Assembly (NCBI GenBank): GCA_001800245.1
Contig: MGVA01000043.1
Location: forward strand, 93,098-157,097
DNA length: 64,000 nt
From: Elusimicrobia bacterium RIFOXYA12_FULL_51_18
GTDB lineage: Bacteria > Elusimicrobiota > Elusimicrobia > Elusimicrobiales > UBA9959
Reading direction: 5' to 3'
How positions within the stretch are numbered: the first letter of the stretch is position 1; every line of letters begins with the position of its first letter. The notes below the pieces were generated by a model. That model was given only the letters and a program-made list of their open reading frames with translations. It made no database searches and was not told the origin of the DNA. Below are positions 5,173 through 61,642 of the stretch, piece after piece. A program made the translations under genes and the position numbers.

Positions 5173-5182
5173 TGTAAGGTCC

Positions 5183-5296
5183 GGCTTATGACCATGCCGT
5201 AACTGCCCTGTGGGAGTGCCGCAGCAAGAGCTGTGCTCATCAAGCGGCCCGGCGCTATACGCACCAAACGGTCAAGCGCTATACGTTCAGACGGCC
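5183..5296 (-). repeat. dispersed repeat core (copy A)
   Basis: Reverse complement aligns with 19839-19930 from GGCCGTCTGA to CATAGGTC, with an internal 'CGTATAGCGC' duplication. Confidence 0.75.
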
Positions 5297-19601: not shown

Positions 19602-19838
19602 TGGGCTTGAGTCCCACCCGGTCTCTTCAATTGGCCCCGGAGTTATTGGGTCCAAAGACCCAGGACGATTTTTTCTTGGTGCGAAGTCGTTCCACGAGGG
19701 GTTCAAAATGATGTTTAACCTGAAAAATTCAGTTGAATTTTTCCCTTCGCGGAGTTCAGGTGCGCTTCGTGCGGCATACACCCCGAAAACCTGGCGCGCA
19801 TTGCGCTTGGTTTTCGACCCGCTGCTGCGGGGAATCCC

Positions 19839-19955
19839 GGCCGTCTGATGCGCATAGCGCTGGGCCGCGTTGATGAGCATAGCTCTTGATGCGGCACGCC
19901 CATAGGTCAGTTACGGCATGACCATAGGTCTAATACGGCACCTACGCAGGTATTG
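19839..19955 (+). repeat. dispersed repeat core (copy B) ending in three tandem 22-nt units
   Basis: Units at 19887-19908, 19909-19930 and 19931-19952, each 'nnAT/TACGGCAYnnCCATAGGTC'-like. Confidence 0.75.
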
Positions 19956-28672: not shown

Positions 28673-28818
28673 GGGGAGGAGAAAAGGTAACAGGAACCTT
28701 TTGTGCCCAGTAGCGGAGAGCAAGCTCCACCGTCATTCTATAGTGGAGGAGGTACACGGGGCTGGGGCGGAGGGCAAATCCCGGACAGGCCATGGCGGGG
28801 CTTCTCGCGGCGCTACCC

Positions 28819-28843
28819 CCAAAGCCAACCAGTTGCCGTTACA
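28819..28843 (+). repeat. copy of module 'CCAAAGCCAACCAGYYGCC-GTTAC'
   Basis: 17/19 identical to 35490-35508 and to the reverse complement of 33618-33636. Confidence 0.7.
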
Positions 28844-28992: not shown

Positions 28993-30399
28993 ATGACTCA
29001 GCCTCGCAAAACACTCAATAAACTGCTGAAACCTTCACAGGCTATTCATGCGCTTCATCCGGAGGTTCCGAAGAACGAGGTTATCCACGCGTTGCGTGAG
29101 CGCGTCAAGGAATTGACGGCGCTTCACTCCACGGTATGCGTGCTGCAGGATGACAATCTTTCGACAAAAGAGGTGCTTGACCGCATAGTCAAGCTTATCC
29201 CGCCGGCATGGCAGTACCCGGAAATTACCTCGGGGCGCATAATCGTCGGAGACTGTGAAGGCCGGAACCGCGGCTTCAGGCGCACGCGCTGGCTGCAGGC
29301 TTGCGATTTCCGGATAAGTCCGTCCCTCTCCGGCCGTATCGAGGTTTACTACCTTAAAAAAATGCCGAAAGAGGCGGAGGGCCCGTTCCTCGCAGAGGAA
29401 CGCAATCTTATTAATTCCCTGGCCGATATGCTTCGGGTTTATTTTGAGCGCAAGTCGGCTTCGAAGGAATTGCTGGACGCGCACAACGACCTGGAACGGC
29501 GTGTGAAAGACCGCACGGCCGAACTGGAGAAGCTTAACTCCGCCCTGAAAGCCGAGATCAGAGAACGTGAGCTGCGCCAGAAGGAAATACTCTCTTATCA
29601 GGAAAAACTGCGGGGCCTCTCGGCGGAGCTCATTCTGACGGAGGAGCGCGAACGCAGGGAGATAGCCACGGACCTGCACGATATAATAGGCCAGACGCTG
29701 GCCATGGCTAAAATGAAGGCCGGCGCCCTTCGCGGCTACTGCTCCGTCCCTGAAGCGTCTTCCGAACTGAAGAATCTTTCGGGTTTTATAGACGAAGCGA
29801 TACTCGCGAGCCGTAACCTGACTTTCCAGCTGGCTTCTCCCATACTTTACGAGTTGGGCCTTGAGAGCGCGCTTGAACGCCTGGCTGCGGATACGCGCAA
29901 ACGTCAGGGTCTTGCGGTGGATTTTCACGGCGACGGCAGACGCACTTCTTTGCCTACTGAGACCAGTGTTCTGATCTTCAAGGCGGTGCGCGAACTTCTG
30001 ATGAATGCCGTGAAACACTCGAAGGCCTCGGAAGTAAAGGTGAGGATGCGCAGCGGCGGTGGCAAGATAGCTGTAACTGTGCGTGATAACGGCTGCGGTT
30101 TTAACGCCGCGGCGGCTTCGGTCTATGACGGCGATAAGGGGGGCTTCGGGCTTTTCTCCATCAGGGAAAAAGTTTCCCGCCTGGGCGGGGCCTTCCGGCT
30201 GAGTTCGCGCCGGGGTTCGGGCACGCTGGCGGTAATAACGGCGCCTCTGGAGCCTGTCCGACATAAGGCGTTCATGGCGAAACTGCCGATTTTGAAGCCG
30301 AGCCGACGCGACGCGAAACTAGCATCCTCGACTAGAGGATGTAAGTTGAGCGGCGCTAAGGCGCAGGCAAAAAGCGGCAGTTGCAGACGAAATCGCTAA
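28993..30399 (+). CDS. cytoplasmic sensor histidine kinase (HisKA_3 / NarL-partner type)
   Basis: Start at 'MTQPRK'; coiled coil; H-box 'DLHDIIGQTLA'; 'LLMNAVKHS', 'DNGCGF', 'GGFGLFS'. The last 40 or so codons are encoded by a dispersed repeat. Confidence 0.8.
   Translation: MTQPRKTLNKLLKPSQAIHALHPEVPKNEVIHALRERVKELTALHSTVCVLQDDNLSTKEVLDRIVKLIPPAWQYPEITSGRIIVGDCEGRNRGFRRTRWLQACDFRISPSLSGRIEVYYLKKMPKEAEGPFLAEERNLINSLADMLRVYFERKSASKELLDAHNDLERRVKDRTAELEKLNSALKAEIRERELRQKEILSYQEKLRGLSAELILTEERERREIATDLHDIIGQTLAMAKMKAGALRGYCSVPEASSELKNLSGFIDEAILASRNLTFQLASPILYELGLESALERLAADTRKRQGLAVDFHGDGRRTSLPTETSVLIFKAVRELLMNAVKHSKASEVKVRMRSGGGKIAVTVRDNGCGFNAAAASVYDGDKGGFGLFSIREKVSRLGGAFRLSSRRGSGTLAVITAPLEPVRHKAFMAKLPILKPSRRDAKLASSTRGCKLSGAKAQAKSGSCRRNR
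30290..30368 (+). repeat. dispersed repeat copy (modules M1-hairpin-M2) at the HK/RR junction
   Basis: 28-nt block 26/28 identical to the reverse complement of 33870-33897; central hairpin CATCCTC/GAGGATG (30323-30341). Confidence 0.7.
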
Positions 30400-30432
30400 T
30401 GTCGGACATGCTCCCAAGCAAGGATAAACGAA

Positions 30433-31080
30433 ATGGAAAAAAAGATACTGATCTGCGACGATCATAAGATATTCCGTGAAGGCCTGCGCGCCCTGCTTGA
30501 AAAACAGCCCGGCATTAAAGTGATCGGCGAGGCCAGGGACGGCATAGAGTCGGTGCGTCTGGCCAAAGAACTTTCTCCGGACATCGTCATAATGGATATT
30601 TCAATGCCCGGCCTGAACGGCATAGAGGCTTCCCGCAAACTCGCCAAAACGCGGAAAGCGGCGCGTATAATCGCTCTCTCAATGCACAACGACCGTAAGT
30701 ACGTGACGGAGATTTTCAAGGCCGGCGCGCGCGCCTACCTGTTAAAAGATTCGGCTTTTGAAGAGCTTTTGGACGCTATCAAGGCGGTGAATTGCGGCCG
30801 GTTCTTTCTGAGCGCCGGCATCACAAGCCTGGTGCTGAGCGATTATATAAAGGGGCCCGCCGGAGACCCCCGCAGTCCGTTCACTATACTTTCCGCGCGC
30901 GAAAGGGAAGTGCTGCAACTCCTGGCCGAGGGGCTGCGTACCAAGGAGATATCTCACAAATTGGACTTAAGCGTCAAGACGGTGGAAACCCACCGCAAAA
31001 AAATAATGGAAAAAATAGGGATTACTAGCATTGCCGGCCTCACCCGTTACGCGGTAAAGGAGGGTCTGGTAAGTCTGTAA
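30433..31080 (+). CDS. NarL/LuxR-family response regulator
   Basis: Receiver domain 'ILICDDH...DIVIMDISMPGLNG'; LuxR HTH 'LSAREREVLQLLAEGLRTKEISHKLDLSVKTVETHR'. Confidence 0.9.
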   Translation: MEKKILICDDHKIFREGLRALLEKQPGIKVIGEARDGIESVRLAKELSPDIVIMDISMPGLNGIEASRKLAKTRKAARIIALSMHNDRKYVTEIFKAGARAYLLKDSAFEELLDAIKAVNCGRFFLSAGITSLVLSDYIKGPAGDPRSPFTILSAREREVLQLLAEGLRTKEISHKLDLSVKTVETHRKKIMEKIGITSIAGLTRYAVKEGLVSL

Positions 31081-33282: not shown

Positions 33283-33352
33283 GAAAAATATTGCCAGCGG
33301 AATGTTTGAATGAAGAATGCGGTTAAAAGTTGACGACACAAAGGAGAATGCG

Positions 33353-33538
33353 ATGAATACCAATAACACAAACAACAACCGGAATAAGAACAAGCAACAG
33401 AATCGGAACAATCAGCAGCCCCAGAACCAACAGCAGAATCAAAACCAGCGGCAGAATCCTAACCAGCAACAGGATCAGGCCCGGCAGCAAAATCAGCCGC
33501 AGCCCCAGCAGCCGAAGAAAAAGTCCTGCTGTTGCTAA
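33353..33538 (+). CDS. Gln/Asn-rich micro-protein ending in SCCC
   Basis: AAAGGAG RBS 6 nt before the ATG; 61 codons dominated by N/Q/R/K; terminator immediately downstream. Confidence 0.45.
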   Translation: MNTNNTNNNRNKNKQQNRNNQQPQNQQQNQNQRQNPNQQQDQARQQNQPQPQQPKKKSCCC

Positions 33539-33560
33539 GCTGCCAAGTTGTTTTAAATTC

Positions 33561-33592
33561 AAAAGGCCCCGCCTATAAAGCGGGGCCTTTTT
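33561..33592. terminator. bidirectional intrinsic terminator
   Basis: GGCCCCGC (33565-33572) / GCGGGGCC (33580-33587), A-run before and T-run after. Confidence 0.7.
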
Positions 33593-33599
33593 CACTTCC

Positions 33600-33930
33600 A
33601 AGTAAACAAAATATAGTGGCGGCTGGTTGGCTTTGGCGCGAGAGCCGCATGATCGCGCAGTCGGGCCGCCGGCGGGTTTTCTGCGCGCTTCGGGACCGGG
33701 TTTATGGGAATGAAAACCGGAGTCTCCCGCCGGCTTCGCAACTCGGGCAAAAGACAAGCCTATGGCAGTGCCGTATCAGGGACTGTGTCTATCAGACGGC
33801 CACCGCACTGCGGTTTCCCCTGCTGCGCCATCGCGCTGCTCAACTTACAGGTTCATTGGAGCCTGTTCGTTTCGCATCGCTTCGGCTCGGCTTCAAAAAA
33901 TAAATTCAGTTTTGGGGTATGTTGACAACC
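33600..33930 (-). ncRNA. longest copy of the modular intergenic repeat family; candidate structured RNA
   Basis: No credible ORF; contains all repeat modules in one array, nested helices (33668-33676 pairs with 33726-33734), and runs into the 33561-33592 terminator on the minus strand. Confidence 0.35.
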
Positions 33931-35489: not shown

Positions 35490-35513
35490 CCAAAGCCAAC
35501 CAGCCGCCGTTAC
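35490..35513 (+). repeat. copy of module 'CCAAAGCCAACCAGCCGCC-GTTAC'
   Basis: Exact reverse complement of 33618-33636; overlaps the stop codon of the minus-strand TPR gene. Confidence 0.75.
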
Positions 35514-39455: not shown

Positions 39456-39491
39456 CCCGCCGGTCCGGCGGACGCCCGTTGAAATAGCGGG
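39456..39491 (+). repeat. 36-nt twin-hairpin repeat (copy 1)
   Basis: 35/36 identical to 61607-61642; CCGCC-GGTCC-GGCGG and CGCCCG-TTGAAATAG-CGGG hairpins. Confidence 0.8.
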
Positions 39492-60462: not shown

Positions 60463-61638
60463 ATGAAAATTTTAATAGCTCCTAATGCGTTTAAAGGCAC
60501 TCTTGGCCCGCTGGCGGCGGGGCGGGCCATAGCGCGCGCGCTTAAGAAGCTCGCGCCAGGCGCGAAGCTTGAGTTATTGCCGGTTTCGGACGGCGGGGAT
60601 GGGCTGTTGGAAACGTTCCTGTTCGAATACAAAGGCCGGGGCCGCAGGGTGCTTTCTGTGCCCGGTCCGCTGTCCAAGCCTGTGCGCGCCCGCTGGGTCA
60701 TGGCCGGGGACACGGCCGTTATAGAGATGGCCGAGGCCGCGGGCTTGAAATACCTTTTAAAAAAAGAGCTTGCGCCTCTTGACGCCACCACTTTCGGCGT
60801 CGGGAAGCTGATCGGGGCCGCGGTTGCGGCCGGAGCGCGTTTGGTGATAGTGGGGCTGGGGGGCAGCGCCTCAAATGACGGTGGGGCGGGTTGCGCTGCG
60901 GGTTTCGGCTTCAGGCTGCTGGATAAGCGCGGCCGCCCGGTGCCTCCCGGCGCCCGAGGACTGCTTAGGCTTGAAAGGATACTTCCGCCGGCTTCTGCGG
61001 CCAGTTTGCCGCGTATCAGGATCATAGCTCTTACCGATGTTGATAATCCGCTGACTGGCCCGCGCGGTTCGGCCCGGGTCTATGGTCCTCAGAAGGGAGC
61101 GGATCCGGCGGATGTCGTAGTTATGGAAAAAGCGTTGCTTCATTACGCCCGCGTAATTAAACGCGAACTTGGCATAGATATAAAGGATCTGAAGGGCGGG
61201 GCGGCGGCGGGAGGACTTGGAGCCGGTCTTTACGCTTTTTTCGGAGCCAGGCTGACCGGAGGTTCTGATTTTGTGCTCAAGCGGATGAATTTTGAGGCCG
61301 CAGTGAAGAGATGCGACCTTGTTATCACCGGCGAAGGCCGTTTCGACGAGCAAAGTTTCAGCGGGAAGGCGCCGTTTATGGTCGCGCGGCTCGCCCGTAG
61401 TTATAAAAAACCGGCGCTTATGGTTTGCGGCTCCTGCGCAGTGGAAGATCTTAGCAGCCTCAAAGGCTGCGGCATAAGCGGGGTAATTGCTTTGGACACG
61501 GTTCTCCCGCTTTCCGAACTTCTCGGTAGCCCCGCTTCGGCTATGACCAAAGGGATTCTGCTTTCCAGTGATATCGTGGCCCGGTTTCTCCAACCCATAA
61601 AACTCCCCCGCCGGTCCGGCGGGCGCCCGTTGAAATAG
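60463..61638 (+). CDS. glxK: glycerate kinase
   Basis: 'MKILIAPNAFKGTL', 'LPVSDGGDG', 'VITGEGRFDEQS'. Confidence 0.9.
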   Translation: MKILIAPNAFKGTLGPLAAGRAIARALKKLAPGAKLELLPVSDGGDGLLETFLFEYKGRGRRVLSVPGPLSKPVRARWVMAGDTAVIEMAEAAGLKYLLKKELAPLDATTFGVGKLIGAAVAAGARLVIVGLGGSASNDGGAGCAAGFGFRLLDKRGRPVPPGARGLLRLERILPPASAASLPRIRIIALTDVDNPLTGPRGSARVYGPQKGADPADVVVMEKALLHYARVIKRELGIDIKDLKGGAAAGGLGAGLYAFFGARLTGGSDFVLKRMNFEAAVKRCDLVITGEGRFDEQSFSGKAPFMVARLARSYKKPALMVCGSCAVEDLSSLKGCGISGVIALDTVLPLSELLGSPASAMTKGILLSSDIVARFLQPIKLPRRSGGRPLK

Positions 61639-61642
61639 CGGG
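61607..61642 (+). repeat. 36-nt twin-hairpin repeat (copy 2)
   Basis: 35/36 identical to 39456-39491; supplies the last codons and the TAG stop of glycerate kinase. Confidence 0.8.

What the first reader, a model, noticed from the sequence alone, without database searches (positions are those of the whole stretch)
30290..30399. Repeat element inserted at the histidine-kinase/response-regulator junction donates a basic C-terminal tail; the central hairpin differs from its homologue while staying paired
The kinase's catalytic domain ends near '...LAVITAPLEP'. The ORF nevertheless continues for about 40 codons ('...KLPILKPSRRDAKLASSTRGCKLSGAKAQAKSGSCRRNR') that are encoded by a repeat copy. The block TTGAAGCCGAGCCGACGCGACGCGAAAC is 26/28 identical to the long copy at 33870-33897 (reverse complement). 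The block AAGTTGAGCGGCGCTAAGGCGCAGG is also shared with that copy. Between the two conserved blocks the sequences are unrelated, yet both fold. Here the hairpin is CATCCTC-GACTA-GAGGATG (30323-30341); in the long copy it is ACAGG-10 nt-CCTGT. Conserved flanks around a variable but always paired centre are what I would expect for a selected RNA or DNA hairpin inside the operon's intercistronic region.
Basis: seen in the sequence. Interest (0 to 1): 0.55.

Follow-up and report, generated by a model that had tools for sequence, protein, structure and literature searches.

The report
Transposon-derived repeat inside a kinase gene
The sequence is one copy of a small non-coding mobile element (a MITE, moved by an IS1182-family transposase) common in groundwater Elusimicrobia; it landed in the overlap between a sensor-kinase gene and its response-regulator gene, so the kinase now reads into it and carries an accidental 49-residue tail.

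Summary
Window 30250-30413 is a complete 164-nt imperfect palindrome (RNA fold -87.7 kcal/mol, z = -8).

- **Family:** a 23-nt core pattern hit 24 places, all in Elusimicrobia MAGs. The terminal repeat hit at least 119 metagenome stretches.
- **Ends:** copies are about 162 nt, with 19-nt terminal inverted repeats (GAGCCTGTCCGACATAAGG), flanked by CTAG.
- **Autonomous partner:** the same repeats plus CTAG bound 1.66-kb insertion sequences encoding an IS1182-family transposase (NF033551, 379 bits). The element is therefore a MITE.
- **Kinase tail:** close orthologous kinases (up to 95% identical) lack it. They end ...APLGKDKRNGKKDTYLRRP* and overlap the regulator gene by 35 nt. The 49-residue basic tail is read-through into the element, not a domain.
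- **Central hairpin:** the "variable but paired" centre is the apex of a family-wide hairpin. On 67 copies, 96% of cells pair and 35 of 54 pairs show compensatory changes.
- **RNA role:** orientation relative to genes is unbiased, G-U and A-C mismatches are balanced outside three apex-proximal pairs, and there is no Rfam match. An operon-specific regulatory RNA is not supported.
- **Second copy:** the "long copy" at 33823-33904 is actually a fragment.

This is a new member of a known kind, of modest interest.

The parts
30250..30413 (+). Full-length MITE copy (164 nt), an imperfect palindrome. This is the feature behind the finding.
   Evidence: nhmmer with the family profile: 164 bits, profile positions 2-169 of 170. 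RNA fold z = -8. Absent from orthologous sites in L033, L034 and L035.
30250..30268 (+). Left terminal inverted repeat, GAGCCTGTCCGACATAAGG.
   Evidence: Identical to the left end of 1.66-kb IS1182-family insertion sequences in L077, L047, L144 and L149.
30395..30413 (+). Right terminal inverted repeat, GCTAATGTCGGACATGCTC. It differs at 3 of 19 positions from the canonical CCTTATGTCGGACAGGCTC.
   Evidence: Alignments A4 and A5.
30247..30249 (+). Degenerate left flank: CTG where canonical copies have CTAG. Being one base shorter, it removes the TAG and sets the kinase reading frame into the element.
30414..30417 (+). Degenerate right flank: CCAA where canonical copies have CTAG.
30323..30341 (+). 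Apex hairpin CATCCTC-GACTA-GAGGATG, the most variable but still paired part of the family.
   Evidence: Alignment columns 80/93: CG 24, GC 24, UA 13 of 67 copies.
29092..30399 (+). Sensor histidine kinase gene (HisKA_3 + HATPase_c). The start is the one called on public contigs; the longest ORF starts at 28792. The last 49 codons (30250-30396) and the stop (30397-30399) are element sequence.
30420..30424 (+). AAGGA ribosome-binding site of the response regulator, 7 nt after the element. It is unpaired in the predicted fold.
   Evidence: Conserved in the empty-site orthologues.
30433..31080 (+). NarL/LuxR-type response regulator gene (Response_reg + GerE).
33823..33904 (-). Fragment of the same MITE family, holding the inner core only (profile positions 37-119). 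Both terminal repeats are missing.

Best explanation
Window 30250-30413 is a miniature inverted-repeat transposable element (MITE). It is a non-coding derivative, about 162 nt long, that carries the 19-nt terminal inverted repeats of a 1.66-kb IS1182-family insertion sequence found in the same group of groundwater Elusimicrobia. It is presumably moved in trans by that element's DDE transposase into CTAG-like sites, with a 4-bp duplication. In an ancestor shared with MAG UBA9634, one copy landed between the Leu and Gly codons of ...APL|GKDK.... That position is inside the 35-nt stretch where the kinase ORF normally overlaps the start of the regulator gene. Three consequences can be read directly from the sequence. 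The native 16-residue kinase end (GKDKRNGKKDTYLRRP) is cut off. The kinase ORF reads through 49 element-encoded codons to a TAA in the element's right arm. The two genes no longer overlap, and the regulator keeps its own ribosome-binding site and ATG 7 and 20 nt after the element. The basic tail is a by-product of this copy's private changes: the left CTAG is one base shorter, and the apex has one extra base. A canonical copy would stop the kinase after 6 codons. The 'variable but paired' central hairpin is the apex of the palindrome that every family member forms. Shown here: repeat family, terminal repeats shared with the insertion sequences, transposase family, filled versus empty site, absence of the tail in orthologues, and family-wide compensated pairing. 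Inferred: actual mobilisation by that transposase, the exact original target at this site, and that the tail and hairpin are tolerated rather than used.
For:: 24 of 24 genome hits to the core pattern are in Elusimicrobia MAGs; the terminal-repeat scan gave at least 119 metagenome stretches, with 177 profile hits, 85 of them full length (165-171 nt in 82 of 85). Many copies lie at contig ends; terminal repeats without the MITE interior lead into 1.66-kb elements bounded by CTAG + repeat ... repeat + CTAG. These encode 456-469-aa proteins that match NCBIfam NF033551 (IS1182 family transposase) at 378.7 bits (cutoff 270) and Pfam DDE_Tnp_1, DDE_Tnp_1_6 and DUF772. Only about 23 nt at each end are shared with the MITE; a second IS1182-family element (L061) carries the terminal repeats of MITE subfamily 2; flanks are CTAG/CTAG in 44 of 66 copies. 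Matching non-palindromic flanks occur as TTAG/TTAG once and CCAG/CCAG twice, and subfamily 3 has CTAA/CTAA. Together these indicate a 4-bp direct duplication. PMC3281130 reports 4-bp direct repeats for an experimentally captured 1653-bp IS1182-family element. PMC3852290 lists 160-bp MITEs with 4-bp repeats derived from the IS1182-family ISMac2; orthologous kinases lack the element and overlap the regulator gene; 96% of cells pair and 35 of 54 pairs carry compensatory changes (0 of 500 shuffles reach this; slid controls give 33-44% paired); copies are intergenic, next to ordinary genes, in either orientation. About 13 of 68 abut a TAG stop that lies inside the CTAG.
Against: The ends of this particular copy are degenerate (CTG ... 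CCAA), so no clean duplication can be shown at this site. The orthologous empty sites read CTCG, TTGG, CTGG or TTAG rather than CTAG. Because CTAG is a palindrome, most copies cannot distinguish a duplication from an extension of the inverted repeat. No transposase gene lies in the window, and transposition has not been observed. The interior of about 120 nt is unrelated to the insertion-sequence ends, yet it is conserved and compensated across subfamilies with different terminal repeats. A purely junk element does not obviously predict that.
Confidence: 0.88

Rival explanations
1. The hairpin is a selected cis-acting RNA (or DNA) structure of this operon. Placed between the kinase and regulator genes, it would set their relative expression through RNase processing, mRNA stabilisation or ribosome pausing.
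For: The fold is very stable and sits directly upstream of the regulator's accessible ribosome-binding site. Pairing is maintained by compensatory changes across the family. The forward strand folds about 10 kcal/mol better than the reverse strand in 65 of 67 copies. The insertion has persisted since before the split from UBA9634. ERIC and REP elements are known to alter mRNA stability (my own knowledge).
Against: The element is absent from this junction in kinase orthologues 89-95% identical, which instead keep overlapping genes. UBA9634 deleted the 3' half and so lost the hairpin. There is no orientation bias relative to neighbouring genes across 68 copies. Outside three apex-proximal pairs, G-U cells (42) and A-C cells (47) are balanced. 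The forward-strand advantage comes from a few G-U pairs shared by most copies. There is no T-run terminator or promoter match in the element and no Rfam match.
Confidence: 0.08
2. The extra 49 residues are a genuine C-terminal domain or targeting tail of the kinase.
For: The ORF is intact and identical on contigs from several samples. The tail is strongly basic.
Against: None of the 120 listed homologues has it. Close orthologues end GKDKRNGKKDTYLRRP*. The same DNA occurs at more than 80 non-coding sites. The reading frame depends on two private one-base changes in this copy. In UBA9634 the tail is 32 residues long (EPVRHK...KKKDK) and ends differently.
Confidence: 0.02
3. It is a REP/REPIN-type or ERIC-type palindromic element moved by a different mechanism, such as a RAYT tyrosine transposase. 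Under this view the match to the IS1182 ends would be secondary.
For: It is a full-length imperfect palindrome with a conserved interior, intergenic and often just after stop codons. This resembles REPINs and ERIC (my own knowledge).
Against: The 19-nt ends are identical to those of transposase-bearing IS1182-family elements, for two separate subfamily/IS pairs. The 4-bp flanking repeats fit a DDE element (PMC3281130). No Y1 transposase was found next to any copy examined.
Confidence: 0.03

Closest known systems
MITEs derived from IS1182-family insertion sequences (for example the 160-bp and 169-bp MITEs related to ISMac2 in Methanosarcina acetivorans; PMC3852290)
   Same: Size about 160 bp. 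Terminal inverted repeats shared with an IS1182-family element. 4-bp flanking direct repeats. Multiple copies and no coding capacity.
   Different: Different phylum (Elusimicrobia) and unrelated sequence. Here the interior is a near full-length compensated palindrome shared by subfamilies with different terminal repeats. The target is specifically CTAG-like.
ISPse1 and other IS1182-family insertion sequences (PMC3281130; NCBIfam NF033551)
   Same: The autonomous partners found here are 1.66 kb, against 1653 bp for ISPse1. They have a single transposase ORF, terminal inverted repeats and 4-bp duplications. The transposase scores above the family cutoff.
   Different: The window element has no transposase gene and shares only its 19-23 terminal bases with these insertion sequences.
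ERIC elements and Neisseria Correia elements (palindromic MITE-like repeats co-transcribed with genes; my own knowledge)
   Same: Imperfect palindromes of about 120-160 nt. Found within operons and after genes. Fold into long RNA hairpins when transcribed. Occur in either orientation.
   Different: No sequence relation. Effects on mRNA processing are documented for those families but are untested here. Correia elements duplicate TA rather than a 4-bp CTAG.
Rickettsia palindromic elements (RPE) inserted in protein-coding genes (my own knowledge)
   Same: A palindromic repeat becomes part of an ORF and adds residues to a protein.
   Different: RPEs are typically in-frame internal insertions that leave the rest of the protein intact. 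Here the element replaces the C-terminal end and supplies the stop codon, and canonical copies carry stops in all three forward frames.

Membership tests
MITE (miniature inverted-repeat transposable element) | Short (under about 300 bp) with no coding capacity | tested here: met
   Full copies are 165-171 nt including flanks in 82 of 85 cases. The consensus has stops in all three forward frames.
MITE (miniature inverted-repeat transposable element) | Terminal inverted repeats | tested here: met
   GAGCCTGTCCGACATAAGG / CCTTATGTCGGACAGGCTC. Helix 1 is 97.3% paired over 67 copies.
MITE (miniature inverted-repeat transposable element) | Flanking target-site duplication | tested here: met
   Family level: CTAG/CTAG in 44 of 66 copies. 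Matching non-palindromic flanks are TTAG/TTAG (1), CCAG/CCAG (2) and CTAA/CTAA in subfamily 3. At the window copy itself the flanks are degenerate (CTG / CCAA).
MITE (miniature inverted-repeat transposable element) | Many dispersed copies in a genome | tested here: met
   10 core-pattern hits in one MAG (JAVHRY01) and 24 in 9 MAGs. At least 119 metagenome stretches, with many contigs broken at the element.
MITE (miniature inverted-repeat transposable element) | Terminal repeats shared with an autonomous element that encodes a transposase | tested here: met
   1.66-kb elements in L077, L047, L144 and L149 have the same ends and CTAG flanks. A second pair exists for subfamily 2 (L061).
MITE (miniature inverted-repeat transposable element) | Presence/absence polymorphism at orthologous sites | tested here: met
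   Filled in the window and in 17 contigs. Half-deleted in UBA9634. Empty in L033-L035 and L155-L158. Only this one site could be compared.
MITE (miniature inverted-repeat transposable element) | Mobilisation by the partner transposase | not testable with these tools
   Needs a transposition assay.
IS1182 family (for the autonomous partner) | Transposase scores above the curated family threshold | tested here: met
   NF033551: 378.7 and 374.2 bits against a cutoff of 270. Pfam DDE_Tnp_1, DDE_Tnp_1_6 and DUF772 also match.
Structured cis-regulatory RNA / known RNA family | Match to a curated RNA family | tested here: not met
   No Rfam hit at the element with E up to 1, none in four loci with canonical copies, and none at gathering threshold over the whole window.
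Structured cis-regulatory RNA / known RNA family | Fixed orientation relative to the regulated transcript, with a strand-specific (G-U tolerant) substitution pattern | tested here: not met
   Orientation counts are 25:20 and 18:16. G-U occurs in 25 pair columns and A-C in 30. Outside three apex-proximal pairs there are 42 G-U cells versus 47 A-C cells.
Protein domain (kinase C-terminal extension) | Conserved at the protein level in orthologues | tested here: not met
   Absent from all 120 listed homologues.
REP/REPIN mobilised by a RAYT transposase | Associated Y1 (RAYT) transposase gene flanked by the repeats | tested here: inconclusive
   None was seen among the ORFs next to copies, but whole genomes could not be scanned.

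The most novel reading that the evidence does not exclude
The palindromic interior of about 120 nt is itself a selected module. It is unrelated to the insertion-sequence ends. It is over 90% conserved and kept paired by compensatory changes. It is shared by at least three subfamilies with different terminal repeats, two of which match different IS1182-family elements. That would mean MITEs in this lineage swap terminal repeats to ride different transposases while preserving a hairpin. The hairpin would then either be needed for mobilisation or give the host some orientation-independent benefit, such as transcript-end protection after stop codons.
Probability: 0.2. Interest if true: 0.5.

Novelty: new member of a known kind. 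Interest (0 to 1): 0.3.

Why it matters
The finding matters mainly for annotation. The 49-residue kinase tail, and similar short extensions at other genes, are read-through into a mobile repeat and should not be treated as protein features. The element also breaks assemblies of these uncultured Elusimicrobia, because many contigs end in it. It adds a defined MITE / IS1182 pair, with a CTAG target that often coincides with TAG stop codons, to a phylum with no described MITEs (none found in the one literature search). Biologically, it offers a natural experiment. An overlapping, translationally coupled kinase/regulator pair was uncoupled by a 164-nt hairpin in one lineage. A sister lineage then partly deleted the hairpin, and the kinase stop again overlaps an ATG there. 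This could be used to ask how much gene overlap matters for two-component stoichiometry. The conserved, compensated interior shared between subfamilies with different ends is a small open question about MITE evolution.

Tried and rejected
- **Known RNA families:** Rfam searches of 26-37 kb at E up to 1, of four loci with canonical copies, and of the whole window at gathering threshold gave nothing at the element.
- **Promoter or terminator in the element:** none found.
- **Viral contigs:** 0 hits for the core pattern, so there is no sign of a phage origin.
- **Further filled/empty pairs:** searching the 1.2 Mb of fetched loci with joined flanks recovered only the kinase site.
- **Clean 4-bp duplication at the window copy:** not possible. 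The flanks are CTG / CCAA, and orthologous empty sites read CTCG, TTGG, CTGG or TTAG.
- **Strand-specific RNA selection:** the forward strand does fold better, but this traces to three apex-proximal G-U pair positions shared by many copies. Elsewhere G-U and A-C are balanced, so I did not take it as evidence.
- **Transposase next to MITE copies or in the window:** neighbours are ordinary genes such as GGDEF, PfkB, MFS and phosphoesterase, and tblastn of the window gave nothing.
- **Partner for subfamily 3 (ends CAGTCYGCTGAAAAA, flanks CTAA):** none in the fetched loci.
- **Hammerhead ribozyme:** I considered whether CGAAAC in the core plus CTGATGAG in the R3 insert could form one. By eye, the order and spacing of the motifs do not fit any hammerhead topology, and Rfam has no hit.
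- **Covariance model:** not built, because nhmmer already recovered the family.

Full report
**1. What is in the sequence**

- 30292-30319 matches the reverse complement of 33870-33897 at 26 of 28 positions.
- 30340-30366 matches 33823-33849 at 89%.
- Neither block occurs in shuffled sequence.
- The 21-23 nt between the blocks differ but pair in both copies: CATCCTC-GACTA-GAGGATG at 30323-30341, and ACAGG...CCTGT in the other copy.

The reported interval is only the middle of a larger object. GAGCCTGTCCGACAT at 30250 pairs with ATGTCGGACATGCTC ending at 30413. The whole 164 nt folds into one long imperfect hairpin: -87.7 kcal/mol, z = -8.0, and none of 200 shuffles is as stable.

The Pfam HATPase_c match of the kinase ends at nt 30250-30252. 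The last 49 codons and the TAA at 30397-30399 are therefore repeat sequence. The regulator's AAGGA (30420-30424) and ATG (30433) follow 7 and 20 nt after the element and are unpaired in the predicted fold.

**2. It is a repeat family restricted to Elusimicrobia**

An exact scan of 185,579 species genomes with a 23-nt core pattern gave 24 hits. All were in Elusimicrobia MAGs, mostly from groundwater, with ten in a single MAG.

Contigs encoding the window's exact regulator protein come from Rifle aquifer metagenomes. The 8 shown have the identical junction sequence, in independent JGI, ENA and Logan assemblies.

Aligning the hits shows that the full unit is about 162 nt:

CTAG|GAGCCTGTCCGACATAAGG ... 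core ... CCTTATGTCGGACAGGCTC|CTAG

The kinase-junction copy is full length. The copy at 33823-33904(-) holds only profile positions 37-119.

**3. The autonomous partner**

- A profile search of all fetched DNA (1.2 Mb) found 177 copies, 85 of them full length.
- Many copies lie exactly at contig ends, as expected for a high-copy repeat.
- Fifteen terminal-repeat matches lacked the MITE interior.
- Nine of these lead into a different sequence that starts a gene, MTERTFRPYDRDQ..LLPPSL.EWLP.
- Four are complete: 1.66 kb, bounded by CTAG + repeat and repeat + CTAG, encoding 456-469 residues.

The protein matches NCBIfam NF033551 (IS1182 family transposase) at 378.7 bits against a cutoff of 270. 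It also matches Pfam DDE_Tnp_1, DDE_Tnp_1_6 and DUF772. Only about 23 nt at each end are shared with the short element.

A second IS1182-family element, in L061, has a 533-aa transposase scoring 374 bits. It carries the ends of MITE subfamily 2, GAGCCTGAGCAATTAGTCG. In that contig three elements are separated by single CTAGs.

The short element is therefore a MITE of IS1182-family insertion sequences. There is precedent. A functional 1653-bp IS1182-family element makes 4-bp direct repeats (PMC3281130). MITEs of 160 bp with 4-bp repeats derived from the IS1182-family ISMac2 have been catalogued (PMC3852290).

**4. Target and duplication**

Of 66 distinct full copies whose ends could be located, 44 have CTAG on both sides. 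CTAG is a palindrome, so these copies cannot separate a duplication from a longer inverted repeat.

Some copies have matching non-palindromic flanks, which argues for a 4-bp direct duplication:
- TTAG/TTAG, once.
- CCAG/CCAG, twice.
- CTAA/CTAA, in all three complete subfamily-3 copies.

About 13 of 68 copies abut an ORF of at least 120 residues whose TAG stop lies inside the flanking CTAG. The neighbouring genes are ordinary.

**5. What happened at the kinase/regulator junction**

The 52 closest full-length orthologues (73-95% identity) mostly end ...GTLAVITAPLGKDKRNGKKDTYLRRP* or a shorter ...APL(A)KDKR. None of the 120 listed proteins has the window's tail.

Their DNA reads GCGCCT-CTCG-GCAAGGATAAACGAAATGG. 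The kinase ORF runs 35 nt into the regulator gene (gene coordinates; alignment).

The window has 164 nt plus degenerate flanks between CCT CT. and GCAAGG. The insertion:
- replaced the native 16-residue end of the kinase;
- uncoupled the two overlapping genes;
- left the regulator's ribosome-binding site intact.

MAG UBA9634 has the same left junction but only the 5' half of the element. Its kinase tail is EPVRHKAFMAKSPILKPSRSDAKRAPLKKKDK*, and the TGA overlaps an ATG 6 nt before the regulator's conserved ATG. The insertion therefore predates the split of the two lineages and was later half-deleted in one.

The long basic tail (7 K, 7 R, 1 D, 1 E) is an accident of this copy. The left flank is CTG rather than CTAG, which removes the TAG and shifts the frame. 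One extra base in the apex moves reading into the only frame that stays open until 30397. A canonical copy would stop the kinase after 6 codons, since stops occur at nt 2, 19 and 39 of the three forward frames.

The original target cannot be reconstructed. The flanks are CTG / CCAA, and the empty sites read CTCG, TTGG, CTGG or TTAG.

**6. The "variable but paired" centre**

This is a property of the whole family, not of this operon.
- On 18 copies, RNAalifold predicts 54 pairs, 26 of them with compensatory changes.
- On 67 distinct copies, 96.0% of cells pair, against 89.6% in shuffles and 33-44% when partners are slid.
- 35 of 54 pairs change on both sides; no shuffle out of 500 reaches any measure.
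- The apex is the most variable part: pair 80/93 is CG in 24 copies, GC in 24 and UA in 13.
- The outer stem also switches wholesale between subfamilies while staying paired.

These counts are inflated by shared descent and by subfamily structure. They show that pairing is maintained, not why it is maintained.

Three observations argue against a strand-specific RNA role:
- Orientation relative to the upstream gene is 25 same versus 20 opposite, and relative to the downstream gene 18 versus 16.
- G-U occurs in 25 pair columns and A-C in 30. Outside three apex-proximal pair positions there are 42 G-U cells and 47 A-C cells.
- There is no Rfam match.

The better folding of the forward strand comes from those few G-U pair positions, which are shared by many copies.

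Two explanations for the maintained pairing remain possible, and I cannot choose between them. One is a requirement of the element itself. The other is templated correction between the arms of a palindrome, a known mutational process (my own knowledge).

**7. Comparison with known systems and verdict**

In kind, the element is a MITE with an identified IS1182-family partner. Every defining feature that can be tested in silico is met.

In behaviour it resembles two other groups (my own knowledge):
- ERIC and Correia elements: palindromes co-transcribed within operons.
- Rickettsia palindromic elements: repeats that become part of ORFs.

It is unrelated to these in sequence, and an effect on mRNA is untested here. 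One literature search for MITEs in Elusimicrobia found no description.

One feature goes beyond the ordinary. The interior of about 120 nt is unrelated to the insertion-sequence ends, is well conserved and compensated, and is shared by subfamilies whose terminal repeats match different IS1182-family elements. That leaves open a modestly interesting reading: swapping of terminal repeats around a selected hairpin. I put this at about 0.2.

Overall the finding is a correct observation with an over-specific interpretation. It is a new member of a known kind, useful for annotation and as a natural case of uncoupled two-component genes, but not surprising to a specialist.

Noticed in passing
window 28819-28841 (+), 33614-33636 (-), 35490-35512 (+): A second repeat, CCAAAGCCAACCAGYYGCCRYTA with about 15 further similar bases on each side, occurs three times in 7 kb. 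One copy lies inside the 5' end of the longest kinase ORF (28792...), which suggests the real start is 29092. Only one weak extra copy was found in 1.2 Mb of related DNA (L087). Its nature is unknown.
   Followed up: partly
window 5175-5295 (-) and 19838-19950 (+); also 33770-33795; L023, L050, L081, L069, L096: A third repeat is made of tandem units of about 22 nt (..TGATGMGCATAGCKC.., ..ACGGCAC..CATAGG). A module of about 45 nt from it (GGCCGTYNATGAGCATAGCTCYTGATACGGCACTGGCATAGCC) sits inside several MITE copies, always right after GTAAGTTG. A piece of it follows the MITE fragment at 33.8 kb. It has no Rfam match, and the CTGATGAG motif does not complete a hammerhead.
   Followed up: partly
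L061:1-1988 (metagenome contig Ga0208961_1010520): Three elements lie in a row, separated by single CTAGs: the right end of the 1.66-kb IS, a different 1.77-kb IS1182-family IS with subfamily-2 ends (533-aa transposase), and a subfamily-1 MITE. L009 and L029 also show elements abutting through a shared CTAG. The CTAG at an element's edge is evidently re-used as a target.
   Followed up: yes
L016, L018, L026, L044, L131, L027:1828-1995: MITE subfamily 3 has the same core but quite different, still complementary, outer arms (CAGTCYGCTGAAAAAC... / ...GTTTTTCAGCAGACTG) and CTAA (or TTAG) flanks. No transposase-bearing partner was found in the fetched DNA.
   Followed up: partly
L024:2005-2115 (-) (MAG UBA9634, contig DMES01000001.1): The orthologous kinase/regulator junction keeps only the 5' half of the MITE. 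The kinase stop TGA there overlaps an ATG (ATGA) 6 nt upstream of the regulator's conserved ATG. The deletion thus brought the two reading frames back into contact.
   Followed up: partly
window 33317-33538 (+) and 33560-33590: A small ORF encodes a Q/N-rich peptide (MRLKVDDTKENAMNTNNTNNNRNKNKQQNRNNQQPQNQQQNQ...KKKSCCC). It is followed by a strong symmetric GC-rich hairpin with A/T runs on both sides (AAAAAGGCCCCGCCTATAAAGCGGGGCCTTTTT), just before the 1.1-kb repeat-rich non-coding stretch that holds the MITE fragment.
   Followed up: no
window 39456-39491 and 61607-61642: A 36-nt direct repeat, CCCGCCGGTCCGGCGGRCGCCCGTTGAAATAGCGGG, is 97% identical between two sites 22 kb apart. It was not examined.
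   Followed up: no
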